Positions 2,277 through 64,000 are shown, numbered from the stretch's first letter. The stretch: 64,000 nt of DNA from Desulfuromonas sp. (GCA_012026975.1 VEPG01000056.1:3871-67870); one strand, 5' to 3'. Numbers and translations are program-made. Notes: generated by a model from the sequence alone, not told the origin.

Positions 2277-2282
2277 ACGTTT

Positions 2283-4204: not shown

Positions 4205-4211
4205 GGACCGC

Positions 4212-38238: not shown

Positions 38239-38268
38239 AATCCCTACAGAACCTCACTGGAATCTAGT

Positions 38269-39542: not shown

Positions 39543-39569
39543 ATATCTAATCAGGAAGGAGGAGACAAG

Positions 39570-41504: not shown

Positions 41505-41528
41505 GCGGGCGTCATCGTATCGTCCCAG

Positions 41529-41933
41529 TTGGGGGCGACCTGTGACACCACCCAGTACGACACCGATGTTCACACCATCAGCCTGGCGGCTGACTACGCC
41601 GCCACCGAGAAACTTGACCTGCGCGCCGCCGTCAGCTTCAGCGATGCCAAGGCCGAGTGGAGCAGCCTGTACATCAACTATCCGGCCGGGGTCACCGATC
41701 CGGTCCTTCTGGAGATGTATGACCCGACCGCCCTGTCGAGCATGACCGACTACTCCGACCTGCACTACCAGCAGACCGAGCTGTCGCTGGGCGGGACCTA
41801 CCAGGTCACGCCGCAGTTCTACGTGGCCGCCCAGGCTGCCTACGAGATCTTCAAGGACAAGGATCCCTACGTCTACGGCGATCTCGATGGCGAGTCCTGG
41901 AACGGTTATCTGGGGGTCGGCTACAAGTTCTAG
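41529..41933 (+). CDS. C-terminal portion of the same MtrB/PioB-like barrel (same frame as 39570-41504)
   Basis: No RBS and no ATG; the ORF track starts it at TTG. Ends ...NGYLGVGYKF with terminal Phe, typical of OM barrels. Only 8 sense codons separate it from the TGA. Confidence 0.6.
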   Translation: MGATCDTTQYDTDVHTISLAADYAATEKLDLRAAVSFSDAKAEWSSLYINYPAGVTDPVLLEMYDPTALSSMTDYSDLHYQQTELSLGGTYQVTPQFYVAAQAAYEIFKDKDPYVYGDLDGESWNGYLGVGYKF

Positions 41934-47852: not shown

Positions 47853-48641
47853 ATGCGCAAAACTCTCTTCAATATCACCAAGATCTTGCTCTGCCTGCTT
47901 GCCGGCCTGACCCTCCCCGCTTTTGCCGTCGATCGTCCACCGGCCGACTACACCGATCCGGTGACCGGCATGGAGTTCATGGCGATTCCGGGTGGAACCT
48001 TCACGATGGGTGACAATCAAGACAAAACGGCAAGCCCGGCACACGAGGTAACGATCAAACCGTTTTTGCTCGGTCGGTTCGAGGTAACCTTCGAGCAGTA
48101 TGCCAAGTTCTGTTCGAGTACCGGACGACTGATTCCCTCCGATAGCGGTTGGGGGATGGCCGACCGGCCTGTAATCAACGTGTCCTGGCAGGACGCCGTC
48201 GATTTCACCAAGTGGCTGTCGGAAAAGAGCGGCAAGACGTTTCGCTTACCAAGCGAGGCTGAATGGGAGTATGCGGCACGCGACGGAGCAAAGACGCAGT
48301 TCCCGTGGGGGGACGAGATTGGGGTGAATCGGGCCAACTGCAACGGTTGCGGCAGTCCGTGGGATGGCCGCATGACTGCAACGGTCGGTTCCTTTACGCC
48401 AAATAGTTACAGTCTTTACGACATGATCGGCAACGTCTACGAATGGTGTCTGGATGCCCGGCACGATAATTACCTTGGGGCACCGGCCGATGGGTCGGCG
48501 TGGGAGGATGCGAAGGAAAATTTTCACATGACCCGTGGCGGTTCCTGGTACCTGCCACCGGCTGAGATGACCATCATCCGTCGTTGCTGGGCGAATGATG
48601 GACGACGTGAAATCGGGTTTCGGGTCGTTCTTGAAAAATAA
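47853..48641 (+). CDS. formylglycine-generating-enzyme (SUMF1/FGE-sulfatase) family protein, secreted
   Basis: Signal peptide, then MEFMAIPGGTFTMGD...RLPSEAEWEYAARDG...NVYEWC...RGGSW, the classic FGE-family motifs. Confidence 0.8.
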   Translation: MRKTLFNITKILLCLLAGLTLPAFAVDRPPADYTDPVTGMEFMAIPGGTFTMGDNQDKTASPAHEVTIKPFLLGRFEVTFEQYAKFCSSTGRLIPSDSGWGMADRPVINVSWQDAVDFTKWLSEKSGKTFRLPSEAEWEYAARDGAKTQFPWGDEIGVNRANCNGCGSPWDGRMTATVGSFTPNSYSLYDMIGNVYEWCLDARHDNYLGAPADGSAWEDAKENFHMTRGGSWYLPPAEMTIIRRCWANDGRREIGFRVVLEK

Positions 48642-51210: not shown

Positions 51211-51251
51211 AAAAAGCCCCTGTCCGGAGCATTCCGAACAGGGGCTTTTTT
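51211..51251 (-). terminator. rho-independent terminator closing the giant-cytochrome gene string
   Basis: aaaaagcccctgt (51211-51223) and acaggggctttttt (51238-51251), with A- and T-runs on both sides. Lies 18 nt downstream of stop 51269. Confidence 0.85.
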
Positions 51252-51268: not shown

Positions 51269-54200
51269 CTACCACGGCGTCGCCGTGTTCCACCCAGGTT
51301 CATCCCCCGCATCCGTCGTAGCGCCGTTGCCATTGGCATCGATGCGACGGTGGCAGTTCTGGGCACTGGTCGTGTAGGCAAGTTGCTTGCTTCCCGTCGA
51401 ATCCAAAGCCGCCCAGGTGGTCCAGTTGGTATCGCTGGCGAACTGGTCGTCCCAGGTATTGAGCCGGGTATCGAGGCAGTTGGTGATCATCAGCCGCGGC
51501 AAGCGTGAGGCATGCGGGGTATGACACTTTGAACAACTGAAGCTGTGGTAGTCGGCGTTGACCGAGGTCCCGGTGATATCGAGATTGGTCAAACCGGTAC
51601 CCGCCGTACCCCATTTGAATTCGGCAGCTGTATACCCATAACGCGTACCGCTTCCGCCCACGCGCGGGGCATTCATCGAAATGTCAGGCGCCGTTGCCAA
51701 GTCTTGCGAGCGGAAGCCACCCATCCAACTCTTGCCGGTATCCTGATAGTCCGTGACCCCCTGGTAAGCCATGTACGGCCGGGTGACGCGGGCGTTGCCG
51801 CTCCCCGTCGGCAGACCGCGCTTGGAGGCGCCGAAGATGTTGCGCGCGGCCGTGGTGTCGTTGGTAAAGCCCTTCACCGAGTTGTTATGACCGATCCAGG
51901 CGGTCTGGATACTGGCCTGAGCATGACACAGGTTGCACAGGCCGTCGTTGGTGGCGTAGGCGTAGGTGGCGTTCGGGCTGGCGTTGTTCTGATCGATCTG
52001 GTAACCGCCATTGCCGGTTGTTGTAAGGCCACCACGCGGCACCGCACCATAGACGTTATCCGTCTGGGCAAAGGTCACACCTGCCTTCGGCGCCCCGTCT
52101 TCCTTGTAACCACTGGGCCGCCAGGTGCCGCGCAGGTAGGGTTTGCCGGAGGCCGTATCGCCAGTCGTCTTATTCAGGTCGTGGACATCGTGGCAGTAAG
52201 AGCAAACCACGAAATCCACAGTCTCCTTGGTGGTCCCCACGGTGGAACCGGTATCGTGGGACGACCAGCGGGCATGTCTTGTCGACGGTTTGGCGCTCAG
52301 GATACCGTTCTTATAGGTGAAGAGGGCGCTGCTCCAAGTGCCGGCGGCGTCGAACCAGCTCTTCTTGTTGTAGCTACCGTAGTTGTAAGTGCCGCCGTTA
52401 TTGGTCCCCCATTCGGAAATATCACCGGCATCGGCCAAAGACCCGTTGTTGTTCTGGTCATGGCAGTTCCAGCACATTTCCGGTTCGGTGGCCCCCGAAG
52501 TTGATGTGCCGCCAATGAAGAGGGCGCCATGTTCACCACTCGAGAGCACGTAGTTGATGCCAACGGTCGTATTATTGGCAATGGTGATAACGCCGGTTCC
52601 GGTCTTATGGAACGGATGGCACTTGCCGCACTGGGAATCCCAATTGGTCGAAGTGGTAATTGTGTCTCCCGTCAGGGCTTTCAAATGCGAGCCATAGACG
52701 GTCGTCTTACCCGTAGCGTTGCCTGTCGGCCAGACCACCACCGGCCCTGAGCCGCCAGGGCCATGACAGCCACTGCAGCCACCACCCTTGAAGCCGTCGC
52801 TGTGCTTGTGGCAGGTGGTACAGCGGGTACCGGTGTTGTGCGTATTGGTTTCGTTGATCCCCCGCCGGTAGTAACCGGCCTTGGTCTGGTTGTGGCAGAT
52901 CTCGCAGATGCCGTTGGTCGCCGTACTGACGCCGTAGCTGTTGGTGGCGTTGCCAGTAAGCGCGGTGAAGGTCACCGCCGTGATATTCGCCGTATCCTGC
53001 GGCGTACCGTAACTGTCGGAGCCAATCGTGGCATCCGTCGAGGTGAGCGGCGCCGAGATGTGGCTGCGGACCATATAGTAGTTGGTGTCGCCGTGTGGGT
53101 CGTGGCAGTCGACGCACTTGTAGTCATAGTTATTAGGCCATGTTTTAGTGCTGCCGGTTATTGCCTTGGTATGCGCTTGGATAGTCGGCGTATCGTGGCA
53201 ACCGGCCTGCAGGCAGAGTCCGTTGGTGTTGGTGGCATAGGCGCCGAGCCGGAACGGATCGGTGGCCGAGGCCGCCGGGGAATGCTGTGCAGCGCTGCTG
53301 TGGCAGGTGTAGCAGCCTGGGGTCGCCGTACCGGTGTAGGAAGACAGGTTGGCAGCCGCATTGCTACTCCAGGTATAAGCCGTCGTGCGGCCATGACCAT
53401 ACGTATTGTACTGACCGGTGAAGGTCACCGGGTTGGGGATCGTGTCGATGGCCGGCTTGGTGGTGCCGGTCTCGGTCGCGGCCAGGCCGCCGCCGTGGCA
53501 GTCGAAGCAGCCGTTGGTCAAGGTGCCGCCCCAGGTCGGGGTCGCCCCGCCGTGGCAGACCGTGGCGGCACAGGTGCCGTCGTCAAGATGGGTGGCACCG
53601 GCGGCATTATAGTTGACCCCGCCGGCAGTGCTGGCGGTGTCGGTGTAGGTGCCCGCACCGCTATTCATATAGAAATTCACCGTCAGATTCTGGTGCAGTC
53701 CGCCGCCGCCACCCGTGGCCGTGTAGACCGATGCCCCACGGCTCCCTGAGACGTTGTAGGTGGCATTGCCGTGGCAATTATCGCAGTCGGTGTAGGTGGC
53801 ATCGTTGTTGGCATGGGCAGCATGACTGCGGCCGACGCTGGCCGCGCTCGGCAGCGGGCCGGTGCCGCCGGTGTTGTGGCAGCTGCCGCAGGTGACCGTC
53901 GCACTCCACTGCGGCGTGGTCACGCCGTTATGGCAGATGACATTGTTGCAGGTGGTGCTGGCACCGACGAGCGCGCCGTTGCGGGCAGCCGCGGCCGCTT
54001 CGTAATTCATTGCGGTGGCGAAGTTCAGGTCATCGGCGCCGTTGATGTGGTTGGCGCCGGTCGCCACACCGCCGCTGGTTGCCGTCGAGTTGTGACAGTT
54101 GAAGCACTCGTTGACGTTGGTGGCGTTCGGCAGCGAGTTGGAAGCCAGATGCTGGCTATGTTTGTTGGTGGCCATCGCCTCCAGATGGCAGATCGCGCAG

Positions 54201-57106
54201 TTGGCCATGCCGGTGGTATTCCAGGCATAGGTGGTCTGCGCCGGAGCGGTGCTTGGCGAAGCATCGGAACGGTGGCAGAAGTTGGTCCCGCAACTGCCGT
54301 AGCTGGTGCGGAAGGTGCCGCCGTAGACCGGTGCCGGCGTCAGGTTGCCGTCGACATTGAAAGTGCCGTTGAGATGGTTGGCCGCCGGCAGGGTGCCGGT
54401 CGGACTCCCCCAGGCGACAGAGGCATTATGACAGCTGGCACAGTTGATGGTCTTGCCGAAGGTGGTTGCGGCATTGGTATGCACCGTGTGCTTGGTGTCG
54501 CTGGTCGGGTTGTTGTGGCAGGCCGAACAGTTCATTGTCGTCGGCAGAGCCGAGGTAAGCACCGTATGGGTCGGAGTGACATACCAGTCCGGGGTGGCTA
54601 CAGGCTCGCTGCCGGCGGCCGCCGTGCCGTACTGGACGTGGCAGTCGACGTTGGAGCAGGTATTGCCGGTGGTCTCGAAGGTGCCCAGGGTGCCGGTTTC
54701 GTCCGCACCGCCCCAGAACACCTTCGGTGCCGCGGCGGTCAGCGTCGTCGTCTTGAAGACATCGGCGGCGGTGGCGCCCATGTGATCGCTGTCGCCAATG
54801 GCGTGGCAGTACTGGCACAGGGCCTGCTGCTTGGTGCTGCTGGCGGCATCGGCCAGCAACTGGTCGACGGTCTGCGCGTAGACCTTGCTGGCCAGCCACT
54901 GCATGTGCAGCTGGTGGGCGCCGACGATGTCGGGCGTAGTGGTGCCGTTGTCGGCGCCGGAAGTGTTCGGCCAGATCTGGCCGGTCGCCGTGCTGCCGTG
55001 GCAGGAATCAGTGGCGCAACCGGTGGCCTCGACCGTGCCGTTGATATGGAAGCTGGCGACAATGGCCGGCGGGTCGGTGGTCGTGGTTACGGTTGAGCCA
55101 TGGCAGTTCTTGCAGGTCGCCGGGAAGGTCTGCGTGTTGTGGGTGGTGTCGGACGGCGGCAAACCATGGCAATAGTTGCTGCAGGTGCCGGCCGTACCCG
55201 GAACATAGGTGGTCCAGTTGGCGGTCCAGGCCGGGGTGGAATCAAGCGCACCGGCATCGCCACCCGGCGTCTTGAAGCCGTGACAGTAGACCGAACAGCT
55301 TAAGGTACCGGAATCGTAGGCTGTCGTGGTGGTGTTGAGCTGGGCCCGGGCACCGAAGGTTAGGTCGGCCGGAGCGGCGATGTTGGTCAGGATATGCCCG
55401 GCGGCATTGACTGTGCCGGGAACGGTATGGCAGTCGGCGCAGGCAACTGCCCCGCCGTTCATCAGGTTGCTGGTGAGCGTCAGGTGGGTCAGGTGCGCGC
55501 CGGCGGCGTTGGCGCTGCGGAACGGCGAGGCCGCGGTCGGGTAGGCATCAGCGGCGACGCCGGAGTCGGTCTTGGCCCGGTTGTGGCAGAAGGTGCAGGT
55601 GCTGGTGTGTGTAGAGCCCCAGGTCGGGCCGGCGCCGGCCGGGCCGCCGTAGAGGGTAGCCGCGTTTGTGCCGCCGTGACAGTCGGTGTTCTCGCACTTG
55701 CCGAGGGTCGGCGTCGAAGTCTGGTTCCAGGCCGTGTCGGCGACATGATCGGCGTTCTTGTCGTAGCGGGCGGTGGCTTTGGCGCCGATGCCACTGACGT
55801 TCATCTCGATGGTGCCGCGACGGTGGCGGGAGGTGTAGGTACCCCCCGGGGTCTGGCTGCCTTCAATGTGGCAGGTGTTGCACTGATAGGCGAAAGTGGT
55901 GCCATGGGTGGCATGGTTCCCCTGGACCGCGCCGGTAGCACCGGTACGGGCGACCCCGTCAAGAACCGGCAGCGGGTGGCAGCCGCCGCAGCCGAGACCG
56001 GTGGTGATCAGGACCGAGTTGGAATCCCACGGGCCGCCGAGCGGCGCCATGTCCGGCGCGAGCACACCGAGCGCCGTGATGCGCGAAATGCAGGTGGTTC
56101 CATCAAGGGCACCCGATGTGATGTCGTAGGTGACCCACAGATACTTCGGGGTGCCCGAGGTCACGGTACGACTGGCGGCGGCGATCGCCGTCAGATCGAC
56201 AACTGTTGATTGGCCGTTCCAGTTGGCGACCGTCGTCGTACCGAGAACCCCGTCGCTGAAGTTGGTGTTCGCATCGATGTGCACCTTAAGGTTGGCAATC
56301 GTGCCGGTGGCCGCGATGTTGACGTCGTCAACCGTCGCCGAAGTGATGACGCAGCTACCGTTACCGGTGGCGTCGGAGTTGATTTGCAGGCGCTGCATCT
56401 GGACGTTGGTCTGGCTGGGCTGCGCCGTGGTCGCCACCGTGGTGTTGCTGGTGACGGTCAGGCTGTCCACCACCGCCGGGGTGAAGGTGATGGCGATATC
56501 ATCGGCATAGAGGCTTGAGGTCGCGCCGTTGGTGGCGCCGGTAGTGCTCGACAGCGAGACGGTGATCTGGTTGACGTTCTTGGGCAGGGTCAACGGGAAA
56601 ACGGTCGCGGTCGTATTGGTGACGTTCGTCCAGGCGCTGTTGGCGCCGACTGTGCCAGTAAAGATATTGACCGTGGTCGCATCGCTGTAGCGCAGATCAA
56701 TGGTAATGGTCCTGGCCGTACTGGCGGCGAGGGTCCACTGTTCCATCGCCCAGACGACAACGTCAGTCTTGGCGGCAATGACACCACCGGCCGAAACGGT
56801 AACCGACTGGGTTGCGGTTCCGGTCGAGGCCTTGGCTCGTCCGGTCACCGTTTCGAGGAACGAACCGGTTCCCGCCAGCGTCGCGTGATTCTGCGCGGTC
56901 GAGACGCTGGCGACGCCGTTGGTCGCCGAACCGAGCGACCAAGTGGCGTTCGGGCTGGGGAAGCCACCGTCGGTCACCATCGCCGCGGCCCAGACGGTCG
57001 AAGAAAAAGTGAGGAGCACCACCGCCAACAGGCCGGCCACGCCAAACCGCCAGCGGCAAGATGTTCTCTTCACGGTCTGCTGCGCTTTTGCACGTCGAAT
57101 ATCCAT
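51269..57106 (-). CDS. giant multiheme c-type cytochrome (CxxxxCH/CxxCH repeat family), about 1945 aa
   Basis: Manual count gives about 23 CXXCH plus about 9 CX3-4CH motifs, starting at CGGCH (nt ~55990). A heme-free beta-rich N-terminal region of about 330 aa precedes them. Signal ...GVAGLLAVVLLTFSSTVWA. ATG 57106 (GAGGG 5 nt upstream) is preferred; the ORF-track ATG 57202 would give a pre-signal N-terminus of more than 70 aa. Confidence 0.85.
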   Translation of the reverse strand: MDIRRAKAQQTVKRTSCRWRFGVAGLLAVVLLTFSSTVWAAAMVTDGGFPSPNATWSLGSATNGVASVSTAQNHATLAGTGSFLETVTGRAKASTGTATQSVTVSAGGVIAAKTDVVVWAMEQWTLAASTARTITIDLRYSDATTVNIFTGTVGANSAWTNVTNTTATVFPLTLPKNVNQITVSLSSTTGATNGATSSLYADDIAITFTPAVVDSLTVTSNTTVATTAQPSQTNVQMQRLQINSDATGNGSCVITSATVDDVNIAATGTIANLKVHIDANTNFSDGVLGTTTVANWNGQSTVVDLTAIAAASRTVTSGTPKYLWVTYDITSGALDGTTCISRITALGVLAPDMAPLGGPWDSNSVLITTGLGCGGCHPLPVLDGVARTGATGAVQGNHATHGTTFAYQCNTCHIEGSQTPGGTYTSRHRRGTIEMNVSGIGAKATARYDKNADHVADTAWNQTSTPTLGKCENTDCHGGTNAATLYGGPAGAGPTWGSTHTSTCTFCHNRAKTDSGVAADAYPTAASPFRSANAAGAHLTHLTLTSNLMNGGAVACADCHTVPGTVNAAGHILTNIAAPADLTFGARAQLNTTTTAYDSGTLSCSVYCHGFKTPGGDAGALDSTPAWTANWTTYVPGTAGTCSNYCHGLPPSDTTHNTQTFPATCKNCHGSTVTTTTDPPAIVASFHINGTVEATGCATDSCHGSTATGQIWPNTSGADNGTTTPDIVGAHQLHMQWLASKVYAQTVDQLLADAASSTKQQALCQYCHAIGDSDHMGATAADVFKTTTLTAAAPKVFWGGADETGTLGTFETTGNTCSNVDCHVQYGTAAAGSEPVATPDWYVTPTHTVLTSALPTTMNCSACHNNPTSDTKHTVHTNAATTFGKTINCASCHNASVAWGSPTGTLPAANHLNGTFNVDGNLTPAPVYGGTFRTSYGSCGTNFCHRSDASPSTAPAQTTYAWNTTGMANCAICHLEAMATNKHSQHLASNSLPNATNVNECFNCHNSTATSGGVATGANHINGADDLNFATAMNYEAAAAARNGALVGASTTCNNVICHNGVTTPQWSATVTCGSCHNTGGTGPLPSAASVGRSHAAHANNDATYTDCDNCHGNATYNVSGSRGASVYTATGGGGGLHQNLTVNFYMNSGAGTYTDTASTAGGVNYNAAGATHLDDGTCAATVCHGGATPTWGGTLTNGCFDCHGGGLAATETGTTKPAIDTIPNPVTFTGQYNTYGHGRTTAYTWSSNAAANLSSYTGTATPGCYTCHSSAAQHSPAASATDPFRLGAYATNTNGLCLQAGCHDTPTIQAHTKAITGSTKTWPNNYDYKCVDCHDPHGDTNYYMVRSHISAPLTSTDATIGSDSYGTPQDTANITAVTFTALTGNATNSYGVSTATNGICEICHNQTKAGYYRRGINETNTHNTGTRCTTCHKHSDGFKGGGCSGCHGPGGSGPVVVWPTGNATGKTTVYGSHLKALTGDTITTSTNWDSQCGKCHPFHKTGTGVITIANNTTVGINYVLSSGEHGALFIGGTSTSGATEPEMCWNCHDQNNNGSLADAGDISEWGTNNGGTYNYGSYNKKSWFDAAGTWSSALFTYKNGILSAKPSTRHARWSSHDTGSTVGTTKETVDFVVCSYCHDVHDLNKTTGDTASGKPYLRGTWRPSGYKEDGAPKAGVTFAQTDNVYGAVPRGGLTTTGNGGYQIDQNNASPNATYAYATNDGLCNLCHAQASIQTAWIGHNNSVKGFTNDTTAARNIFGASKRGLPTGSGNARVTRPYMAYQGVTDYQDTGKSWMGGFRSQDLATAPDISMNAPRVGGSGTRYGYTAAEFKWGTAGTGLTNLDITGTSVNADYHSFSCSKCHTPHASRLPRLMITNCLDTRLNTWDDQFASDTNWTTWAALDSTGSKQLAYTTSAQNCHRRIDANGNGATTDAGDEPGWNTATPW

Positions 57107-57208
57107 GGCTGCCCTCATCCCCTTGCCGCACGTATCGTCAAGACGCTGGTTGATCATCGTTCGTACCATCTTTGCCATTCTGTCGGCCGCGAGTTTCATC
57201 ATCTCCTC

Positions 57209-60200
57209 CTACGGCGCCCAGTCCGGCGTGGGTTTCAGGTGACAGGCCACGTTCGAGCAGGTTTGTGTCCCGGTATCGTAGGTTGGCGGGGTGCCATTGA
57301 GGAACCACACGTTGGCCGGCGCCGCGGCGCCGAGGATGTTGCTCGACGGGTCAAGGTGGTTGGCCTGGTTGGACATGTCGTGACAGACGTCGCAGGCCGG
57401 GTAATTGGTGCCGTTCCAGTCGGCCAGGACGCCATCCGGGTTGCCGGCGGCCATGCCGATATCCTGAACCAGATGGATACCGTGCTTCGGATGGGAGCCG
57501 GTGTTCGGCGGCAGGCTGCCGTGGCAGGTGGTGCAGGTGGCAAAGACTTCGGTGACGCCGTTGATATGCTTGGTCACGTCCTTGAAGGTTGCCGCCCCCG
57601 TATTCATCGTATCGGTATGGCAGTTGCCGCACTGGGCCAGCGTCTCGCTGCCGGTATGGCCGGTGATCAGCGGTGGGGCACCATGGCAGCGGTTGCAGTC
57701 GCCGGTCGCTGTGATGGAACCGGTCAGATAGGCACTCTGGTTCCAGCTGGGCATGGTGTCGACGCCGTTGGCCATGGGGGCGCCGTGGCAGTAGTTGCTG
57801 CAGACGCCGGTGGAGTAGCTGGCCGGGGTGCTGTTGGCTGTCGCCAGGGCGCCCCAATTGTTTTCAGCCGGCAGGCTCGAATCGATGTGCCCGACCACGT
57901 TGACCTTGTTGACATAGGTCGACTGGCCGGCCATGGCCGAAACCGTGGCATTGTGGCACTGGTCGCAGGTGATATCCGCCGAATAGTTGTTGAGCGAATT
58001 GAGGTGGGCCGCATGGGCACCGACCTGGGCGTCGGTATCGGCGGTATCGCCACTGGTGTCGCGACCGGTTTTGGTCGGATCGGACATGCCGTGGCAGACT
58101 GAACAGTTGCCATTGGTGGCGCCGGTCGTCCACACCGCCGAAACACCGCCATGGCAGTTGGTCGTGGAGCAGGTATAGAGCGGCTGGTCCGGGTTGGTCA
58201 GGCTGTTGGTGTTGTATTCGAAGGTATCGATGGTGCCGGTGCCGCCGTTGGCCGCGGCCACGGAGACATCGCGGGTCTTGTTGATATGATAGGTCAGCCC
58301 GCCGGCCGAGATTGCACTGTTATTGCTGGCGGTCAGCACATGGCAGTCGTCGCAGGTATAACCGAACTGCTTGTTGGTATCGGATGGATCGGTGCCGATG
58401 TGCGCCAGATGCGAGGCGGTCAGCGTCGTCGTCGTGCCCGGGCCGCCGTGGCAACCGGTGCAGCCGACGGTGGTCGTCCAACTGATGGATTGATACGTCG
58501 GGGTCGCCTGGCCGGTGCTGTGGCAGTAGACATTGGTGCAATTGGTGCCGTTCCAGTTGTTGTTCGGCGTGGCATCGCTGTCCCAGGTGCCGAGAATGCG
58601 GATATCGCGCGTGCCGTTAACGTGGAAGGTCTTGTCGGCGATCGCCTGATCGTTGGCATCGACCGTACCGTCGTGACACATCTGGCACGGCTTGATCGAC
58701 ATGACCGCGGCGGCGCTGACGTGCGAGGGGTGGCCGTTACTTGCCATCGGACTGCCCGAGGCCGCGTTATTGTTATGGCAGCCGGTGCAGTTGGTCGGCA
58801 GCGTCCCGGTCCAGGTTGCAACCACGTTCGGCGCCCCGGCCGTTGCTTTGCCGTTGTTGTGACAGGCGTTGAAGCCGCAGGTGCCGTTGGTGTAGGCGAA
58901 GCTGCCGTCGGGCGAGGTCGCCGCGGCAGTCCCCGCGGCCGTGTAGGTGCCGCCGCCGGCAAGGCCGACCTCGGCCGCCTGCCGGGTGCTGACCACACCG
59001 CCGGAGTGGGTGGTGGCCGCCGGATTGTGGCAGGTCCCACACTGGAAGATGTAGGCCGTCGTCGTGCTGGTGTTGGTGGTCAGGTTGCCGGTCGCCACCG
59101 TGGCGCTGGCATAGTGCTTGGCATGATTCCCCTCCAGCAGGCTGCTGGCGGTATGACAGCCGTCGCAGTTGATGTTCGGGCCGCCCCAGGTCGGGGTGTT
59201 GGTGCCATGACAGTAGATACTCGAACAGGTACCGTAGGTGGCACTCGGAGCCTTGTTGCCGGTCGTGCCGCTGGCGGCGGCGGTTTTGCCGAAGGCCGTG
59301 TACTTGGCATTGGTGCCGATGCGGGTATCGCCCGTAGCCAGCGCCCAGGCGACGTTGCCGTCGAGATGGGCGGTATCGCTGTAGGCCGGATGACACTTGT
59401 TGCAGGTCAGCTTGACGTTGCCGGTGCTCAGCACATGGGTGTTGTGGCTGCCGGTCTGGGGCGGGGCCGTGGTGCTGGTGCTGTGACAGGCGCCACAGCC
59501 GGCCTGGCTGGTACCGACCCAGGACGGTGAGTTGATCAGGCCGCCGTTACCGGCCCAGTTGCCATGGCAGTAAACCGTACAATTCAGATTGTCGTTAGCC
59601 ACCTTGTTGAGAACCGTGACTCCGTCACTGGCGACAAAGGTGTAGGTATTCGTCAGCAGGGCATCCTGCGGGAAGCTCAGGGTCCCGCCGTTGACCGTGT
59701 TGACGAAGCCCGGCACGTTGGTGCTGTTGGCGGCGACCCCCATCTGGATGGTGTAGCTCACCTCCGGCATGGTGTTGCCCGTGTGACAGGTCTCGCATTT
59801 CATCAGCTTGGTGGTGACGTGCTTGGCATGGGCGCCGGGGGCGGTCGCCGGGTTGGCGAGAGCGCCGGTCGCCGAGGGGGCAAACACCATGTTGCTGCTG
59901 GAGGTCGGCGGGTTGCCGTGGCAACTGTTGCAACCAGGGGAGTTGAAACCCTTCTTATGCGGGTGGCAACCCATGCAGTTGGACTGGTTGGCGTGGTTGT
60001 TGTTGCCACCGTTGGTCAAATTGTTTGCCGTGTTGTAGTTGTGGAACTTGTTCTTGCTGTGGCAGGCCTCGCAGATGCGGTTGGAGGTCGCGTGGCCGCC
60101 CGCGTCATTGCCGAGTTGCGACGTACCCGCCTCGACGGTCAATAACTGCACCGCGCCGGCGCCGATTGGGAAGGTATCGGTCGGCGCAGTCAACGTGGTC

Positions 60201-62386
60201 TTGACCCGCTTGACGTTGGTGGTTGAGCGTACATGACAGGTGGCGCACTCGAATTTCCCGTACTGGGCGCTGGTAATCCCCCAGCCATTGACCGTCTTGC
60301 CGCTCTGGGCGATCGGCCACTTGGTCGAGCCGGTGGTCACCGAGTTGTGCACCATGAAGTCGATTGCGGTGTTGTCGACGGTGATGTTCCCGGTCTGGGT
60401 CTTCACGACCCCGCCGCAATCCGGGTCGGTGCCGGTGACCTTGAAGGAGACCACCGTTGGCGTGGTAAGGCCGAAATTGCTGCTGTCCCAAGGGGTTTCG
60501 GCATCGACGGCATTGATCTGGTAGGTGAAGTTGGCGACGTTGCCGGTCTTGGTGTACAGGCCGGCAAGGTTGACGATCAGACCGCTGACCGTCTGGCCGG
60601 CGGGGATGGTGAGCGTCGATGGGGTCGCGTCGGTGCAGCCGCCGCCGGTGAAATCGACCGTGTTGTCGACGCTGGACGCGATGCTGCTGGTGTTGCCGGC
60701 CGCATCCGTGGCGGCGCCGGCGGGGATCGACGCGATCACCGTGCCGTTGCCGGTGACGGCTACGGTGACGGTATAGACGGTCGGACCACCGGTCACGCTG
60801 GTCACGCTCATGCCGGTCGCCGTGCCGCCGAGGGTGACATCGGTGGTCGCGAAACCGGTGACGTTTTCACTGAAGGTCGCCGTGAACGTAATCGGCGAGG
60901 TGGCGGTCGGGTCCGCCTGCGCCGCGGCCTGTTCGATGGCCACGCTCGGCGGGAGATTGTCGAATGTCACGGTGTTGTCGGTGCTGGTCGAGGCAACGTT
61001 GGGAAGACCGCTCGTCGAACCGGTCGCCACCCCGGCACCGATGGTGGCAATGACTGTACCGCTATCGGTCGCCGTGACGACCACGGTGTAGGAAGTGCCG
61101 CTCCCGGTGACACTGGTGACACTGGCCGGGGCCGTTCCGGCAAGGGTGATATCACCGGCAACAAAACCGGTAACACTCTCCGAGAAGACCACCTTGTAGG
61201 TGATCGTGCCGTTGGTCGGGTCAGCCTGAACAGGCGCGGTGGTGCTCTGGTTGATCGTCACCGTCGGATTGACCAGCGTGGTGAAGGTGACCGTGTTGTC
61301 GGTGCTGGTCGAGGCGTTGTTGGGGTTGCCGAAAACATCCGTGGCCACGCCCGCGCCGATGGCGGCGATGACGGTGCCGGATGTCGTCATTCCGGTCACC
61401 GCCACGTTGTAGGTCGTGCCGCTGCCGGTCACGGTCGCTGTCTTCGTGCCACCGGCCGTCCCCGTAATCGTCACGTCGCCAGTGGCAAAGGTCGTCGTCG
61501 ACTCGCTGAACACCACGGTGAAATTGATCGTCGCGCCGTTGGTCGGGTCCGCCTGGGCACCAGCCTGGTTGATGGTGACATTCGGATTCCAGTTAATGAC
61601 CACCTTGCCGGCAAATCCGGCGCCGCCGGATTTGTTGCCGCCGGACGAACGGTTCCCCGAACCACTGCCGCCGCCGCCGGGACCACTGGCGGGGGTGGTG
61701 CCGGCGCTATTGGCCGCGCCGCCGGCGACACCCGGACCGCCACCAGTGACGGCCGCCGCACCGGCATTGCCGGCCTGGGTCGTGGTGGTGAAGTTACCAT
61801 TCGCCGCAGTGCCGGCCGAGCCGCCGCTGCCACCGCCGGTTTTGGCCACGTCGTTATTGGCGCAAGCACCGTTTCCGCCCGTGAACTTGGTGGTCCCGAA
61901 GCCGGAACCCGCCGCGCCGCCGGCGCCACGCGTACCGCCACCGGCGCCGTCACTGAGACCACCACCGCCGCCGCCAGGAGCCATGATGGTCGTGGCATTG
62001 TTGAAGAAGCTGGCGGTCCCGGCACTACCGGCAGCGCCGGCATTACCTGCCCCGCCGGCACCGACCTGGTAGGGGTAGGAGCCTCCCGAGGTCACGGTGG
62101 CCGTCCCTTTCGAATAGGCACCGCCACCGCCACCGCAGCCACCGTAGTTATCGTTGGTCGCGTCACCGCCACCGCCACCGCCGGCGCCCCAGACTTCAAC
62201 CGAAACCGAGGTAACAGCCGCCGCCCCCGAGGGGGCCGTCCAGTTGCCGGTCGCTACGGTCGAGTAAACCTGCTGCCCCGCCCGGGCGCTCCCGGCCAGG
62301 CCAATCATGCCGAGCGTGACGGTAATGATCGTCACCAGTGCCGTGCGCAGCAGACCATTCATGGCGGATGCATTCTGTCTGTTCAT
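57209..62386 (-). CDS. giant chimeric protein: glycine-rich domain + 3 Ig-like repeats + multiheme (CxxxxCH/CxxCH) region, about 1725 aa
   Basis: Signal MNGLLRTALVTIITVTLGMIGLAGSARA. Gly-rich region VEVWGAGGGGGG...GGCGGGGGAYS... (nt ~61592-62269). Three ~105-aa repeats. About 19 CXXCH plus about 7 CX3-4CH motifs from CATCH (nt ~60247) onward. ATG 62386 has GGAAGGTG 5 nt upstream. Confidence 0.85.
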   Translation of the reverse strand: MNRQNASAMNGLLRTALVTIITVTLGMIGLAGSARAGQQVYSTVATGNWTAPSGAAAVTSVSVEVWGAGGGGGGDATNDNYGGCGGGGGAYSKGTATVTSGGSYPYQVGAGGAGNAGAAGSAGTASFFNNATTIMAPGGGGGGLSDGAGGGTRGAGGAAGSGFGTTKFTGGNGACANNDVAKTGGGSGGSAGTAANGNFTTTTQAGNAGAAAVTGGGPGVAGGAANSAGTTPASGPGGGGSGSGNRSSGGNKSGGAGFAGKVVINWNPNVTINQAGAQADPTNGATINFTVVFSESTTTFATGDVTITGTAGGTKTATVTGSGTTYNVAVTGMTTSGTVIAAIGAGVATDVFGNPNNASTSTDNTVTFTTLVNPTVTINQSTTAPVQADPTNGTITYKVVFSESVTGFVAGDITLAGTAPASVTSVTGSGTSYTVVVTATDSGTVIATIGAGVATGSTSGLPNVASTSTDNTVTFDNLPPSVAIEQAAAQADPTATSPITFTATFSENVTGFATTDVTLGGTATGMSVTSVTGGPTVYTVTVAVTGNGTVIASIPAGAATDAAGNTSSIASSVDNTVDFTGGGCTDATPSTLTIPAGQTVSGLIVNLAGLYTKTGNVANFTYQINAVDAETPWDSSNFGLTTPTVVSFKVTGTDPDCGGVVKTQTGNITVDNTAIDFMVHNSVTTGSTKWPIAQSGKTVNGWGITSAQYGKFECATCHVRSTTNVKRVKTTLTAPTDTFPIGAGAVQLLTVEAGTSQLGNDAGGHATSNRICEACHSKNKFHNYNTANNLTNGGNNNHANQSNCMGCHPHKKGFNSPGCNSCHGNPPTSSSNMVFAPSATGALANPATAPGAHAKHVTTKLMKCETCHTGNTMPEVSYTIQMGVAANSTNVPGFVNTVNGGTLSFPQDALLTNTYTFVASDGVTVLNKVANDNLNCTVYCHGNWAGNGGLINSPSWVGTSQAGCGACHSTSTTAPPQTGSHNTHVLSTGNVKLTCNKCHPAYSDTAHLDGNVAWALATGDTRIGTNAKYTAFGKTAAASGTTGNKAPSATYGTCSSIYCHGTNTPTWGGPNINCDGCHTASSLLEGNHAKHYASATVATGNLTTNTSTTTAYIFQCGTCHNPAATTHSGGVVSTRQAAEVGLAGGGTYTAAGTAAATSPDGSFAYTNGTCGFNACHNNGKATAGAPNVVATWTGTLPTNCTGCHNNNAASGSPMASNGHPSHVSAAAVMSIKPCQMCHDGTVDANDQAIADKTFHVNGTRDIRILGTWDSDATPNNNWNGTNCTNVYCHSTGQATPTYQSISWTTTVGCTGCHGGPGTTTTLTASHLAHIGTDPSDTNKQFGYTCDDCHVLTASNNSAISAGGLTYHINKTRDVSVAAANGGTGTIDTFEYNTNSLTNPDQPLYTCSTTNCHGGVSAVWTTGATNGNCSVCHGMSDPTKTGRDTSGDTADTDAQVGAHAAHLNSLNNYSADITCDQCHNATVSAMAGQSTYVNKVNVVGHIDSSLPAENNWGALATANSTPASYSTGVCSNYCHGAPMANGVDTMPSWNQSAYLTGSITATGDCNRCHGAPPLITGHTGSETLAQCGNCHTDTMNTGAATFKDVTKHINGVTEVFATCTTCHGSLPPNTGSHPKHGIHLVQDIGMAAGNPDGVLADWNGTNYPACDVCHDMSNQANHLDPSSNILGAAAPANVWFLNGTPPTYDTGTQTCSNVACHLKPTPDWAP
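60641..61585 (-). repeat. three tandem ~315-bp coding repeats (Ig-like modules)
   Basis: Repeat consensus: VTINQ..AQADPTNG.I.F.VVFSE.VTGF..GD.T..GTA....V.G.GT.Y.V.VT....GTVIA.I.AG.A.D..GN.N..S.S.DNTV.F. Seen three times at ORF-track residues about 285-390, 390-495 and 496-597. Confidence 0.8.
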
Positions 62387-62408
62387 GTTGACACCTTCCA
62401 AAGCGCCT

Positions 62409-62450
62409 GATTTCAAACTGTTCATTATCATGATCTTACTTTCCGGGCAA
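62409..62450 (-). promoter_or_regulatory. candidate internal promoter with overlapping Fur-box-like operator upstream of the chimeric cytochrome gene
   Basis: Minus strand: TTGCCC (62445-62450), a 17-nt spacer, then TAATGA (62422-62427). GATCATGATAATGAACA overlaps the -10 element. The adjacent GTTTGAAATCA shares GATTTCAAA (plus strand 62409-62417) with the feo-locus motif. Confidence 0.4.
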
Positions 62451-62501
62451 ACTAGTCATCGTCATCTTTCCGTTGCCGGCGCGCCGTACGGCCAGCGTGC
62501 C

Positions 62502-64000
62502 TTACTGCGGCACGCTGGCGTGACAGGCCGAACAGTTGCCCGAAGCCGACACCGTACCCCAGGCCGGGGTCAGGATGCCGTTATGGCAGTCGACGGTGGA
62601 ACAGGTCTTGGCGCCCGAGTTCCAACCCGGTACGACGTTCTTGCCGCTGTCGTAACCGAGACCGGTCGCCTTTTTGTAGTCGCCGGAGACGCGCGACCAC
62701 GAGGTGTTGAGCGACGCGACGGTGGTGATGTCGTCACGAATCTGGGCCTTCGACTTGAAGCCGGAGAGGCTGGCGAAGGTGACCGTCGGTGCACCGTCGA
62801 GGTGCGCGGACGAACTGACCTTGATGACCGCCAGTTCGTTACCGGTGACCGGGGTGTTGCTATCACTGTGGCAAGTGGCGCACAGCGTGTTGCCGGCGTT
62901 GTACTCGACCGTCATCGTGGAGTTGTGACAGGTCTGGCAGCCGAGGGTGTCGGAAGTGGCACTGTTGCCATGTGCCGCCCCGGCATCGGTGGCCGGAACC
63001 GCCGACGACGGCATCAGGCCGTTGCGGTCATCATCATACAAGGTGTCGTAATGGATACCGACAGCGTGCAGGTTGTGCGCATTGGTGGTCGGGCTGTTGC
63101 CATGACAGCTGGCGCAGGACATGCCACCGTTCGGGTTGGTCAAATCCCAAACCGCGGTGTCGGGATAGACGCCGTCATTGATGCCGTCACTATGGCAGTA
63201 GACGCCCGAGCACTTGCCGGTGATTGAGGTAAAGGCTGCCGTGGCGCTGTTGTTGCGCTTGGCGTTGACGGCCGGGATGCCGGCCTCGCCCGTCGAGGTC
63301 AGCTTGGTGTTGGGCGCATTGTTGCGATGCAGGGCCACATCGGCCGGGTGGCACTGGCCGCAGCCCATGAGCAGCTTGCCGGTCGCGTCGTAGCTGACAC
63401 TGTACCAGTAGGTTGCATTGCCATAATCGCTCAGGGAGAGCTTCTTGCCGGTCAGCACCGTCGCCATGCTGGTGTGCGACTTGTGATCGGGATCGGAAGC
63501 TTCGCCGTCCTTGTATTTGCCCGTACCGTGGCAATCGAGGCAGTTGTCGCCGCCTTCGGTCTCGACGATGCCATTGATGTGCTTGGTCACGTCGGTGAAG
63601 CCGTTGTCGGCGGCCACGGTGTTGGTATGGCAGGCGGAGCAGTCGGCATCGTTCGGATGGCCGTTGGCCGGGCTGGGCGGATAGCCGTGGCAGAAGGCGC
63701 AGTCGTGGCTGGCAGTGCCGGTGAAGAACGGGGTGTTCCAGTCGGGGACGTTGAGGGTGCCCGACCAGCCGTGACCGATCTTGCTGCCGTCATGGCAGTA
63801 GCTGGTGGCGCAGGTGCCACCCGGGGCGCCGGAGTAGTTGGTCGCGGAGCTGTTGGTGTTGGCCAGCGTACCGAAAACCAGCTCGGCCGGAGAGGTGCTG
63901 TCGAAGTGGCCGACGGCGTTGACCTTGTTCACGTAGGTGGCCTGGGCCGCCATGTTGTCGACCGTGGTCTTGTGGCACTCGCCGCAGGCGATGTCGGAGG
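62502..64000 (-). CDS. multiheme c-type cytochrome of the same CxxxxCH/CxxCH family, 3' part (5' end outside window)
   Basis: The frame stays open upstream of the ORF-track Met at 63953 to the window edge (...SDIACGECHKTTVDN-MAAQATYVNKVN...). 9 CXXCH plus 3 CX4CH motifs are visible. Paralogous to the last ~300 aa of the 57209-62386 product (STYVNKVNVVGH / ATYVNKVNAVGH; DVTKHING in both). Confidence 0.85.
   Translation of the reverse strand, partial: SDIACGECHKTTVDNMAAQATYVNKVNAVGHFDSTSPAELVFGTLANTNSSATNYSGAPGGTCATSYCHDGSKIGHGWSGTLNVPDWNTPFFTGTASHDCAFCHGYPPSPANGHPNDADCSACHTNTVAADNGFTDVTKHINGIVETEGGDNCLDCHGTGKYKDGEASDPDHKSHTSMATVLTGKKLSLSDYGNATYWYSVSYDATGKLLMGCGQCHPADVALHRNNAPNTKLTSTGEAGIPAVNAKRNNSATAAFTSITGKCSGVYCHSDGINDGVYPDTAVWDLTNPNGGMSCASCHGNSPTTNAHNLHAVGIHYDTLYDDDRNGLMPSSAVPATDAGAAHGNSATSDTLGCQTCHNSTMTVEYNAGNTLCATCHSDSNTPVTGNELAVIKVSSSAHLDGAPTVTFASLSGFKSKAQIRDDITTVASLNTSWSRVSGDYKKATGLGYDSGKNVVPGWNSGAKTCSTVDCHNGILTPAWGTVSASGNCSACHASVPQ

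What the first reader, a model, noticed from the sequence alone, without database searches (positions are those of the whole stretch)
51269..64000. 12.7-kb string of three tandem mega-cytochrome genes with about 70 candidate heme sites
Three minus-strand genes fill this region: one 5'-truncated gene (62502 to beyond 64000), 57209-62386 (about 1725 aa) and 51269-57106 (about 1945 aa). The gaps are 115 nt and about 6-100 nt. A strong terminator closes the string at 51211-51251. My manual motif count in the translations is 9+19+23 CXXCH plus 3+7+9 CX3-4CH; the figures are approximate. All three proteins share the module C..CH…YVNKVN.VGH…C….CH…C..CHG.PP…C..CH…DVTKHING. This module resembles the Geobacter CxxxxCH…CXXCH repeat domain catalogued in TIGRFAMs (I recall TIGR01904). 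Members of that family are almost entirely uncharacterised. Both complete proteins have Sec signals and large heme-free N-terminal beta-rich modules. This suggests surface-exposed or extracellular electron conduits with a binding or adhesion head. No porin or secretion partner is adjacent, and the string continues beyond the window.
Basis: partly seen in the sequence, partly recalled or inferred. Interest (0 to 1): 0.8.

Follow-up and report, generated by a model that had tools for sequence, protein, structure and literature searches.

The report
Three giant secreted multihaem cytochrome genes
A metal-respiring Desulfuromonas genome carries an operon of three very large secreted proteins, each with a haem-free binding-type head and 26-37 haem sites, which most likely carry electrons outside the cell; this kind of protein is already catalogued but has never been studied experimentally.

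Summary
Three minus-strand genes fill 51269-64000. They carry 32, 26 and at least 12 haem-attachment motifs, 70 in all, against fewer than 0.3 per protein in shuffles. A strong terminator closes the string.

The window comes from a GenBank Desulfuromonas sp. MAG, where gene B already carries that name.

The haem part is a tandem array of 100-115-residue three-haem units. Every B motif, plus 23 further histidines, is conserved in relatives down to 30% identity.

Each complete protein has a Sec signal and a haem-free head. B has a glycine-rich domain resembling a phage tail protein, then three Ig-like domains. A has two beta-sandwiches with no Pfam family, found almost only on multihaem cytochromes.

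Two related contigs show the whole operon: a MarR-like regulator, then exactly three cytochromes. In one of them, and ahead of two more distant relatives, a c-di-GMP-I (GEMM-I) riboswitch precedes it, as at Geobacter omcAHG.

The best reading is extracellular electron wires with binding heads, switched on by a cyclic dinucleotide. Haem stacking could not be tested because the AlphaFold model failed.

Giant cytochromes of this kind are already known from genome mining, so this is a new member of a known kind. Interest is moderate.

The parts
51211..51251 (-). Intrinsic terminator that closes the string
   Evidence: 14-bp GC-rich hairpin followed by a U-run. dG -34.3 kcal/mol, z = -7.06, and 0 of 200 shuffles fold as well.
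51269..57202 (-). Gene A (GenBank NJC88024.1, 'hypothetical protein', 1977 aa; 1945 aa if it starts at 57106): secreted 32-motif c-type cytochrome
   Evidence: 23 CXXCH, 2 CX3CH and 7 CX4CH. TIGR01904 66.7 bits against a cut-off of 27. Pfam Cytochrome_C7 and MtrC/MtrF II-IV above cut-off. The ATG at 57202 lies 6 nt after B's stop, with GGAGGAG just upstream. The same tight spacing, 9-12 nt, is seen in L003 and L006.
56987..57106 (-). A: Sec signal peptide (hydrophobic core, then VWA|AA)
   Evidence: Read from the translation. Predicted as a helix in the model. No lipobox cysteine.
55991..56884 (-). A: haem-free head made of two beta-sandwich domains (residues about 75-372 of the 1945-aa form)
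   Evidence: No Pfam hit even at E = 1. The AlphaFold2 model is all-beta, with pLDDT 70-90 over residues 85-370. Weak Foldseek matches (E about 1e-4, TM 0.2-0.27) to surface glycan-binding protein B (SGBP-B), sialidase carbohydrate-binding modules (CBMs), PNGase F and tandem CBM22. Only 62 representative clusters among 1.84 billion proteins match it, and 35 of them carry at least 4 CXXCH. dN/dS is 0.23 against the L003 orthologue.
52565..55990 (-). A: array of about 10 three-haem CxxxxCH/CxxCH modules (residues 373-1514)
   Evidence: Iterated HMM search with one B module finds 10 stretches between residues 362 and 1514.
51272..52564 (-). A: C-terminal region with few haems (5 CXXCH in 430 aa), rich in aromatic residues, conserved among A orthologues (CSKCHxPHAS.LPRLM...NCHR...GWN.VTPW)
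   Evidence: Motif positions. Conserved columns. Only a Paired_CXXCH_1 hit of 28 bits. No relative in the PDB.
57209..62386 (-). Gene B (GenBank NJC88025.1, 'CxxxxCH/CxxCH domain-containing protein', 1725 aa; the ORF can start as early as 62431): secreted 26-motif cytochrome
   Evidence: 19 CXXCH, 2 CX3CH and 5 CX4CH. TIGR01904 160.7 bits in 7 stretches. Exact match to the GenBank protein.
62279..62386 (-). B: Sec signal peptide (...GSARA|GQQ)
   Evidence: Read from the translation. Conserved in orthologues.
61589..62251 (-). B: glycine-rich head domain (Pfam Gly_rich_2)
   Evidence: PF21722 at 41-44 bits against a cut-off of 24.3. PHROG 863, tail category, E = 2.4e-10. No sequence relative in the PDB.
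60662..61582 (-). B: three bacterial Ig-like domains (Big_12); boundaries approximate
   Evidence: PF19078, 3 stretches, 35-49 bits against a cut-off of 27. These repeats dominated the first homology search.
57212..60319 (-). B: cytochrome part (residues 690-1725), about 8-9 three-haem modules
   Evidence: Module search. All 26 motif Cys and His, plus 23 further His, are at least 90% conserved in 10 sequences down to 30% identity. dN/dS is 0.19.
62387..62501 (-). Spacer between C and B (115 nt); no terminator-like site on the minus strand
62502..64000 (-). Gene C, 3' part (498 aa in the window; 795 aa known from Logan contigs; probably 1700-2150 aa in full)
   Evidence: 9 CXXCH and 3 CX4CH in the window, and 20 motifs in 795 aa. 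TIGR01904 82.3 bits. The corresponding first gene of the string is 1778 aa (37 motifs) in L003 and 2140 aa in L006.
47853..48641 (+). Formylglycine-generating-enzyme / PvdO-like gene; possible accessory gene, link not proven
   Evidence: PF03781 169 bits. An FGE-family gene lies next to or near the string in the window, L003 and L006 in three different arrangements. The window and L006 copies are 64% identical. No CxPxR target motif occurs in A, B or C.

Best explanation
The region is the 3' two and a half genes of a three-gene operon in a Desulfuromonas MAG. It encodes three giant Sec-exported multihaem c-type cytochromes of the CxxxxCH/CxxCH family.

Anatomy. Each protein has a signal peptide, then a 300-650-residue haem-free beta-rich head that differs between the three genes. 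After the head comes a tandem array of about 8-12 three-haem modules. Each module reads Cx3-4CH ... CxxCHG.PP ... sHxkH ... CxxCH ... HxNG. It supplies three covalent haem sites and three further histidines, enough for bis-histidine ligation of every haem.

Proposed mechanism (inferred). After haem attachment in the periplasm, the proteins are moved to the cell surface or beyond, possibly by the type II system encoded in the same window. There each chain works as a fixed-length electron wire. Scaling from the published 27-haem model gives roughly 30-45 nm. The head holds the wire onto a target, such as a mineral, a polymer matrix or a partner cell. The direction of electron flow (reduction or uptake) is not determined.

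Proposed regulation (inferred from relatives). The operon is transcribed as riboswitch, MarR-like regulator, then the three cytochromes. It is switched on by a cyclic dinucleotide, probably c-di-GMP, which prevents formation of a terminator.
For: Shown here:
- Motif counts and shuffle controls.
- TIGR01904, Cytochrome_C7 and MtrC II-IV hits above their cut-offs.
- Modular repeat and its consensus.
- In B, all 26 motifs and 23 extra His are at least 90% conserved among 10 sequences down to 30% identity.
- Non-motif His number 43, 28 and 22 against 32, 26 and 20 motifs.
- dN/dS is 0.19-0.35 against the L003 orthologues.
- Sec signals without a lipobox.
- Heads: Gly_rich_2 plus 3 Big_12 in B. B's glycine-rich domain hits a phage tail PHROG at E = 2.4e-10.
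- A's head is modelled as two beta-sandwiches with weak similarity to glycan-binding modules. It is restricted to 62 clusters, mostly multihaem cytochromes.
- The operon MarR + 3 cytochromes is conserved in L003 (B orthologue 75% identical) and L006 (56-58%).
- A c-di-GMP-I (GEMM-I) aptamer lies upstream in L003 (54.6 bits), L001 (61.4 bits) and L008 (55.7 bits), against a cut-off of 35.
- In L003 a terminator hairpin and T-run lie between the aptamer and MarR.
- The window's own terminator, and tight B-A spacing with a Shine-Dalgarno sequence.
- gspJ/K/L genes at window 622-3680.

From the literature:
- GEMM elements precede G. sulfurreducens omcS and omcAHG (PMC1950547).
- The omcAHG operon falls 16-fold without the cGAMP synthase GacA, which that paper ties to metal respiration (PMC6456294).
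- Desulfuromonadia hold uncharacterised extracellular 'nanowire-like' cytochromes. One 27-motif example is modelled at about 350 Angstrom, longer than the periplasm is wide (PMC11492766).
Against: - No experimental data exist for any member of this family.
- Extracellular location is inferred only. There is no lipobox, no C-terminal sorting signal, and no adjacent porin or secretion gene.
- Haem stacking could not be examined. The AlphaFold2 model of the B haem region was unusable (mean pLDDT 28.6). No solved structure is detectably related by sequence or profile.
- The window stops inside gene C, so this genome's own promoter, regulator and riboswitch were not seen.
- L006 has the MarR gene but no riboswitch hit.
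- Similarities of A's head to glycan-binding proteins are weak (TM 0.2-0.27).
- No hematite-binding motif occurs above chance.
Confidence: 0.6

Rival explanations
1. Periplasmic wires or electron stores. The proteins stay in the periplasm. There they bridge the inner and outer membranes or act as a haem capacitor, as proposed for other long Desulfuromonadia cytochromes.
For: Only a plain Sec signal is present. There is no lipobox, sorting signal or adjacent export gene. PMC11492766 describes a large pool of predicted periplasmic wire cytochromes and lists electron storage as one possible reason for very high haem numbers.
Against: Ig-like, phage-tail-like and CBM-like heads are typical of surface or secreted proteins. 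By the 27-haem, 350 Angstrom scale, the chains would be about twice the 170 Angstrom periplasmic width quoted in PMC11492766. The riboswitch-controlled Geobacter precedents named in those papers (OmcS, OmcAHG, PgcA) are described there as outer-membrane or extracellular cytochromes (PMC1950547, PMC6456294).
Confidence: 0.2
2. Primarily adhesins or biofilm-matrix proteins. c-di-GMP control and the binding heads point to attachment as the main role. The haems would make the matrix redox-active only as a secondary feature.
For: Both aptamers whose alignments were shown (L001, L003) have G at the position equivalent to G20. An A-to-G change at nucleotide 20 converts a cGAMP-selective Geobacter riboswitch to c-di-GMP selectivity (PMC6456294). 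c-di-GMP usually drives attachment and biofilm formation (general knowledge). The heads are Big_12 Ig-like repeats and a phage-tail-like glycine-rich domain.
Against: About two thirds of each chain is a haem array under purifying selection, with every motif conserved. That is a costly feature for a purely structural role. This reading overlaps with the best explanation rather than excluding it.
Confidence: 0.1
3. Catalytic redox enzymes. One or more of the proteins reduces or oxidises a soluble substrate at a specialised haem, as octahaem and pentahaem reductases do.
For: A's C-terminal 430 residues are not modular, carry few haems and are well conserved among orthologues, so a distinct function there is possible.
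Against: No hit above cut-off to any catalytic cytochrome family, and no solved relative. The histidine count allows bis-His ligation of every haem, which leaves no obvious open coordination site.
Confidence: 0.05

Closest known systems
CxxxxCH/CxxCH domain c-type cytochromes (NCBIfam TIGR01904, Pfam PF09698), for example Geotalea daltonii FRC-32 'cytochrome c, 26 heme-binding sites' (ACM18430.1)
   Same: All three proteins pass the family model. They share the same paired CX4CH/CXXCH repeat. The Geotalea protein aligns at 33% identity over 72% of B's haem part. Both are Desulfuromonadia.
   Different: The heads are extra. Among the 76 hits to B's haem part, Gly_rich_2 is recorded only for B's eight close orthologues and one more distant protein, P0176. 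The other paralogue on the same contig (NJC88032.1) has no head at all. No member of the family has been studied experimentally, as far as the searched literature shows.
Predicted single-chain 'nanowire-like' extracellular cytochromes of Desulfuromonadia (Soares et al. 2024, PMC11492766), including the G. metallireducens 27-motif protein and G. sulfurreducens OmcA/OmcH/OmcG
   Same: Very high haem numbers in one chain (27-87 motifs reported there). They are predicted to be extracellular and are not in a porin-cytochrome operon. Their architecture is modular, and none has been characterised.
   Different: Sequence relationship to those particular proteins was not tested here because their sequences were not at hand. 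The three-gene operon, each gene with its own head, is not described in the passages I read.
G. sulfurreducens omcAHG operon (GSU2885-GSU2882) and the GEMM-I riboswitch regulon
   Same: Several large outer-surface cytochrome genes sit in one operon behind a GEMM-I riboswitch (PMC1950547, PMC6456294). Relatives of the present operon have the same arrangement.
   Different: The Geobacter elements are GEMM-Ib, which is cGAMP-selective with A at position 20. The aptamers here have G at that position, so c-di-GMP is the more likely ligand. Homology of the proteins was not established. The window itself does not include the upstream region.
GSU1996-type multi-domain cytochrome c7 wires (solved dodecahaem, named from my own knowledge; the group is listed in PMC11492766)
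   Same: Beads-on-a-string arrays of three-haem units. Pfam Cytochrome_C7 matches at 52-91 bits.
   Different: No detectable sequence or profile match to any solved chain. The order of motifs and ligands within the module differs from c7 (own knowledge). These proteins are much larger and carry heads.
Giant ANME archaeal cytochromes with haem-free N-terminal domains (ANME MHC-B and MHC-C; Chadwick et al. 2022, PMC9012536)
   Same: A giant multihaem chain joined to a large haem-free N-terminal domain of a carbohydrate-binding or phage-tailspike-like type, proposed there to recognise a partner's surface.
   Different: Archaeal. The head folds differ (pectin-lyase-like, peptidase M6-like, S-layer domain), and some carry C-terminal membrane anchors. 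No homology is implied.
MtrC/OmcA-type decahaem surface cytochromes and polymerising OmcS/OmcE/OmcZ filaments
   Same: The likely job is the same: moving electrons beyond the outer membrane. Pfam MtrC/MtrF II-IV hits at 40-55 bits.
   Different: No lipoprotein signal. Length comes from one long chain rather than from polymerised 4-8-haem subunits. No sequence match to the solved structures.

Membership tests
CxxxxCH/CxxCH domain c-type cytochrome (TIGR01904 / PF09698) | Score above the curated cut-off of the family model | tested here: met
   A 66.7, B 160.7 and C 82.3 bits against a cut-off of 27. PF09698 also scores above cut-off for B and C.
CxxxxCH/CxxCH domain c-type cytochrome (TIGR01904 / PF09698) | Repeated pairs of CX4CH and CXXCH motifs in tandem domains | tested here: met
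   7, 5 and 3 CX4CH motifs, each followed 20-35 residues later by a CXXCH. About 10, 8-9 and at least 7 modules in A, B and C.
c-type multihaem cytochrome (general) | Export signal, so that haem can be attached outside the cytoplasm | tested here: met
   Sec-type signals in A and B, read from the translations and conserved in orthologues. No dedicated signal-peptide predictor was available.
c-type multihaem cytochrome (general) | Covalently bound haem at the motifs | not testable with these tools
   Needs heme staining or mass spectrometry. Indirect support: every motif is conserved, and cysteines outside motifs are almost absent from the haem regions.
GEMM-I (c-di-GMP-I, RF01051) riboswitch-controlled cytochrome operon | Aptamer above the gathering score upstream of the operon, on the same strand | not testable with these tools
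   The window ends inside gene C, and no aptamer lies in the window. The feature is met in relatives: L003 54.6, L001 61.4 and L008 55.7 bits against 35. It is not found in L006.
MtrC/OmcA outer-surface decahaem lipoproteins | Lipoprotein signal with a lipobox cysteine | tested here: not met
   No cysteine at or near the predicted cleavage sites of A or B.
MtrC/OmcA outer-surface decahaem lipoproteins | Match to the pentahaem domain II/IV model | tested here: inconclusive
   PF22113 scores 40.4 bits (A) and 55.3 bits (B) against a cut-off of 30, but only as partial local matches inside a different repeat architecture. No match to solved MtrC or OmcA chains.
Polymerising nanowire cytochromes (OmcS, OmcE, OmcZ) | Sequence relationship to the solved filament subunits | tested here: not met
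   No PDB chain matched at E <= 0.01 with the single sequences. With the profile, only chance-level hits to reaction-centre cytochromes appeared (E 0.1-0.9).
Multi-domain cytochrome c7 wires (GSU1996 type) | c7-type three-haem domains detectable by sequence against the solved structure | tested here: inconclusive
   Pfam Cytochrome_C7 scores 52-91 bits, but no hit to any solved chain. The fold comparison was impossible because the model failed.
Porin-cytochrome conduit (MtrAB/PioAB, GSU2203/2204 type) | Cytochrome gene adjacent to an outer-membrane barrel gene | tested here: not met
   The nearest barrel gene, with its own decahaem partner and LysR regulator, is at 37297-41910, 10 kb away on the other strand with housekeeping genes between.

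The most novel reading that the evidence does not exclude
The three proteins are 'electro-adhesins'. Each would be a fixed-length haem wire tipped by a different target-recognition head: one resembling a phage tail fibre plus Ig-like domains, one CBM-like, and a third type on gene C's orthologues. Made together on a c-di-GMP signal, they might assemble into a heteromeric conductive fibre or mat that both glues the cell to a specific mineral, polymer or partner cell and wires it electrically. A's head, which has no Pfam family and is found almost only on multihaem cytochromes, would then be a new class of target-binding domain dedicated to electron transfer.
Probability: 0.15. Interest if true: 0.7.

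Novelty: new member of a known kind. Interest (0 to 1): 0.38.

Why it matters
If the proposed function is right, these proteins offer single-polypeptide wires of defined length that carry their own targeting domain. That is a different solution from the polymerised OmcS, OmcE and OmcZ filaments, and it could interest bioelectronics.

No member of the CxxxxCH/CxxCH family has been studied experimentally. A conserved, compact operon with an identifiable regulator and riboswitch gives a defined genetic target for a first study.

The contrast in divergence between the window's organism and that of contig L003 is striking. RNase G is 94% identical, while the three cytochromes are 75% (B), 68% falling to 34% (A) and 42% (C) identical. 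This fits, and adds an example to, the reported fast evolution of extracellular cytochromes (bioRxiv 10.1101/2025.11.06.686851).

It does not open a new kind of biology.

Tried and rejected
1. AlphaFold2 of B's haem region (1036 aa, 10-sequence alignment) gave mean pLDDT 28.6, with nothing above 50. Haem spacing could not be assessed and no fold search was run on this model. Both prediction jobs are now used.
2. Sequence and profile searches of the PDB with A, B, the B-orthologue profile, A's C-terminal region and B's glycine-rich head found no real relative.
3. I tried to extend the contig beyond 64000. The GenBank versions of B and of NJC88032.1 are not in the gene-position index. Two Logan assemblies both break at the same point inside C, 795 aa from its stop. 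The genome scan found only a 50%-identical relative.
4. P0180, which lies on the same contig, might have been full-length gene C. It is not: it is 58% identical over the last 496 aa, so it is a paralogue.
5. Rfam found no RNA family in the window and no riboswitch in L006.
6. The hematite-binding motif [ST][hydrophobic][ST]P[ST] occurs 0 times in each protein, against 0.05-0.34 expected.
7. The CxPxR formylglycine target motif, checked because of the nearby FGE-like gene, is absent.
8. The first homology search with full-length B was swamped by unrelated Big_12 Ig-repeat proteins. It had to be repeated with the haem part alone.
9. A full-text search for 'TIGR01904' found no paper.

Full report
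**1. The observation**

Three long minus-strand ORFs fill 51269-64000:
- A is 51269-57202.
- B is 57209-62431.
- C runs from 62502 past the window end.

- A has 23 CXXCH, 2 CX3CH and 7 CX4CH.
- B has 19, 2 and 5.
- The 498 residues of C in the window have 9, 0 and 3.
- The total is 70.

Residue shuffles of the same proteins give means of 0.29, 0.18 and 0.16 motifs and never more than 3. Within the haem regions, cysteines outside a motif are almost absent. B has none, the 795 aa known of C have none, and A has two.

The terminator at 51211-51251 is a 14-bp hairpin of -34.3 kcal/mol (z = -7.06) followed by a U-run.

The C-B spacer is 115 nt and has no terminator-like site on the coding strand. 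A's first ATG lies 6 nt after B's stop, with GGAGGAG just upstream. The equally tight 9-12 nt spacing in two related loci suggests translational coupling. Both candidate starts of A give the same mature protein.

One detail of the finding is only partly right. The literal YVNKVN.VGH...DVTKHING module is in B and C, whereas A has only a diverged equivalent.

**2. Origin and existing annotation**

Exact look-ups show that the window belongs to a 117,643-bp contig of a GenBank MAG labelled Desulfuromonas sp..
- A is NJC88024.1, 'hypothetical protein'.

A, B and C score 66.7, 160.7 and 82.3 bits against a cut-off of 27. Pfam adds Cytochrome_C7, Cytochrom_c3_2 and MtrC/MtrF II-IV hits.

**3. Anatomy**

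An iterated HMM search seeded with one B unit resolves the haem parts into tandem modules of 100-115 residues. There are about 10 in A (residues 362-1514), 8-9 in B (695-1677) and at least 7 in the known 795 residues of C.

The module consensus is ...C.(3-4)CH...P.W...C..CHG..P...sH.kH...C..CH...H.NG.... That is three haem sites plus three further histidine positions, at 0.25-0.42 probability in the profile. This arithmetic fits bis-His ligation. Non-motif histidines number 43, 28 and 22, against 32, 26 and 20 motifs.

In an alignment of B's haem part with nine relatives down to 30% identity, all 26 motifs are invariant or at least 90% conserved, as are 23 further histidines.

A ends in a different region of 430 residues. 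It has only five CXXCH, many aromatic residues and strongly conserved blocks.

Both complete proteins begin with Sec-type signals and no lipobox.

B's head:
- a Gly_rich_2 domain, which also matches a phage tail-category PHROG at E = 2.4e-10;
- followed by three Big_12 Ig-like domains.

A's head:
- It has no Pfam family even at E = 1.
- AlphaFold2 models it as two beta-sandwiches, with pLDDT 70-90 over residues 85-370.
- These give weak Foldseek matches (E about 1e-4, TM 0.2-0.27) to surface glycan-binding proteins, sialidase carbohydrate-binding modules, PNGase F and tandem CBM22.
- An exhaustive HMMER search of 1.84 billion representatives finds it in only 62 clusters. Of these, 35 carry at least four CXXCH. 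It is therefore a rare head largely dedicated to multihaem cytochromes.

**4. The operon in relatives**

Contig L003 (JGI 3300045051) comes from a close relative: its RNase G is 94% identical. It shows the whole unit: a MarR-like gene of 139 aa, then cytochromes of 1778, 1707 and 1758 aa with 37, 26 and 24 motifs.

Orthology follows gene order:
- C to the first gene, 42% identity;
- B to the second, 75%;
- A to the third, 68% over the first 920 residues and about 34% beyond.

L006 (ENA), whose B orthologue is 56-58% identical, has the same order: MarR, then 2140, 1696 and 1643 aa. So the string is three genes and gene C is probably 1700-2150 aa.

dN/dS against L003 is 0.19-0.35 for the heads and haem arrays. 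The genes are therefore functional but evolve far faster than housekeeping genes. This matches what is reported for extracellular cytochromes (PMC11492766; bioRxiv 10.1101/2025.11.06.686851).

A further headless paralogue, NJC88032.1 (1703 aa, 58% identical to C's C-terminus), lies six protein accessions beyond C on the same contig.

**5. Regulation**

Rfam finds a c-di-GMP-I (GEMM-I) aptamer above the gathering score, on the coding strand, in three places:
- upstream of MarR and the string in L003;
- upstream of a MarR-like ORF and a single 49-motif cytochrome in L001;
- directly upstream of a B-like cytochrome in L008.

In L003 a hairpin and T-run lie between the aptamer and MarR. That is the layout of a transcription-terminating expression platform.

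Both aptamers whose alignments were shown (L001, L003) have G at the position equivalent to G20. In Geobacter an A-to-G change at nucleotide 20 converts cGAMP selectivity to c-di-GMP (PMC6456294), so c-di-GMP is the likelier ligand here.

GEMM elements precede omcS and omcAHG in G. sulfurreducens (PMC1950547). The omcAHG operon falls 16-fold when cGAMP synthesis is removed, in a study that ties this signalling to metal respiration (PMC6456294).

The window's own upstream region lies outside the 64 kb and could not be retrieved. L006 has no aptamer.

**6. Surroundings**

Downstream of the terminator lie a fused MFS/spermidine-synthase gene, an FGE/PvdO-like gene, a TPR gene, RNase G and a radical-SAM gene.

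The FGE-like gene recurs beside or near the string in all three loci, in different arrangements. No CxPxR target motif is present, so any link is unproven.

However, the window does hold two relevant units:
- a LysR + GSU2203-family decahaem + GSU2204-family barrel unit at 37297-41910;
- gspJ/K/L at 622-3680. This is a candidate export route, by inference only.

**7. Mechanism**

The best-supported reading is secreted, fixed-length haem wires with target-binding heads, made in response to a cyclic dinucleotide.

What is shown here:
- the family, the motifs and their conservation;
- the modules, the export signals and the head types;
- the operon structure, and the riboswitch in relatives.

What is inferred:
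- haem occupancy and stacking;
- extracellular location and the export route;
- the target of the heads and the direction of electron flow.

Scaling from the published 27-motif model of about 350 Angstrom (PMC11492766) gives roughly 34-41 nm for B and A. That is about twice the periplasmic width quoted there. This favours a surface or extracellular location over the periplasmic rival.

The decisive structural test failed here. The AlphaFold2 model of the haem part had pLDDT 28.6, and no solved relative exists.

**8. Comparison and verdict**

The proteins are members of the CxxxxCH/CxxCH family, and both defining features are met. They are not members of the MtrC/OmcA, OmcS/E/Z or porin-cytochrome families, because defining features were tested and not met.

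Giant single-chain cytochromes with 27-87 motifs are already described from Desulfuromonadia genomes, and 113 is quoted as the record (PMC11492766). Giant cytochromes with haem-free, tailspike-like N-terminal domains are described in ANME archaea (PMC9012536).

What this locus adds:
- a conserved three-gene operon, each gene with a different head;
- a cytochrome-dedicated head with no Pfam family;
- a probable c-di-GMP switch.

It is a good, well-defined target for first experiments on an unstudied family, but it is not a surprise to a specialist. Verdict: new member of a known kind, interest 0.38.

Noticed in passing
window 37297-41910: A complete known unit: a 'multiheme cytochrome-associated' LysR regulator (37297-38238, minus strand), a GSU2203-family decahaem (38460-39542, plus) and a GSU2204-family barrel (39570-41504, plus). 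The barrel ORF ends at an in-frame TGA (...FCQGWYDG*AGVIV...). The same frame then runs 134 aa further to ...GVGYKF, a typical outer-membrane-protein C-terminus. NCBIfam calls the family a '(seleno)protein', so this is a probable selenocysteine read-through.
   Followed up: partly
window 622-5129: Type II secretion genes: gspJ (622-1311), gspK (1317-2276), a GspL-like gene (2283-3680) and two unassigned ORFs that may be gspM/N. This is a possible export route for the giant cytochromes, but it is 46 kb away.
   Followed up: partly
window 47853-48641; L003 23441-24382; L006 20164-20946: A formylglycine-generating-enzyme / PvdO-like gene lies next to or near the cytochrome string in all three loci, in three different arrangements. 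The window and L006 copies are 64% identical. No CxPxR target motif is present in the cytochromes, and the role is unknown.
   Followed up: partly
outside the window, same GenBank contig (NJC88032.1 = P0180): A fourth CxxxxCH/CxxCH cytochrome of 1703 aa lies six protein accessions beyond gene C. It has no head domain and is 58% identical to C's C-terminal 496 aa. It may start a second cluster.
   Followed up: partly
L004 and L005, position 1 (inside gene C, 795 aa before its stop): Two independent Logan assemblies (SRR8717395, SRR8536199) break at exactly the same point inside gene C. This suggests a repeat that short reads cannot cross, perhaps shared with the paralogue NJC88032.1.
   Followed up: no
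window vs L003: RNase G is 94% identical between the two organisms. The three cytochromes are only 75% (B), 68% then about 34% (A) and 42% (C) identical, and the distal half of A is essentially remodelled.
   Followed up: yes
window 12210-12298: ARAGORN calls an 89-nt tRNA-Ile (anticodon TAT) here, but Rfam finds no tRNA or any other family in the window at gathering score. It is probably a false positive.
   Followed up: no
window 12914-17875: A 1653-aa ORF that joins an alpha-amylase-type domain to a glycogen/starch-synthase (GT5 + GT1) domain. It follows an 840-aa sugar-nucleotidyltransferase/phosphomutase fusion at 9421-11943. Together they form an unusual fused glucan-metabolism pair.
   Followed up: no
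L012 22141-22216 (minus strand): Another c-di-GMP-I aptamer (49.9 bits) lies about 8 kb from a distant CxxxxCH/CxxCH cytochrome, but on the opposite strand. Its target gene was not examined.
   Followed up: no
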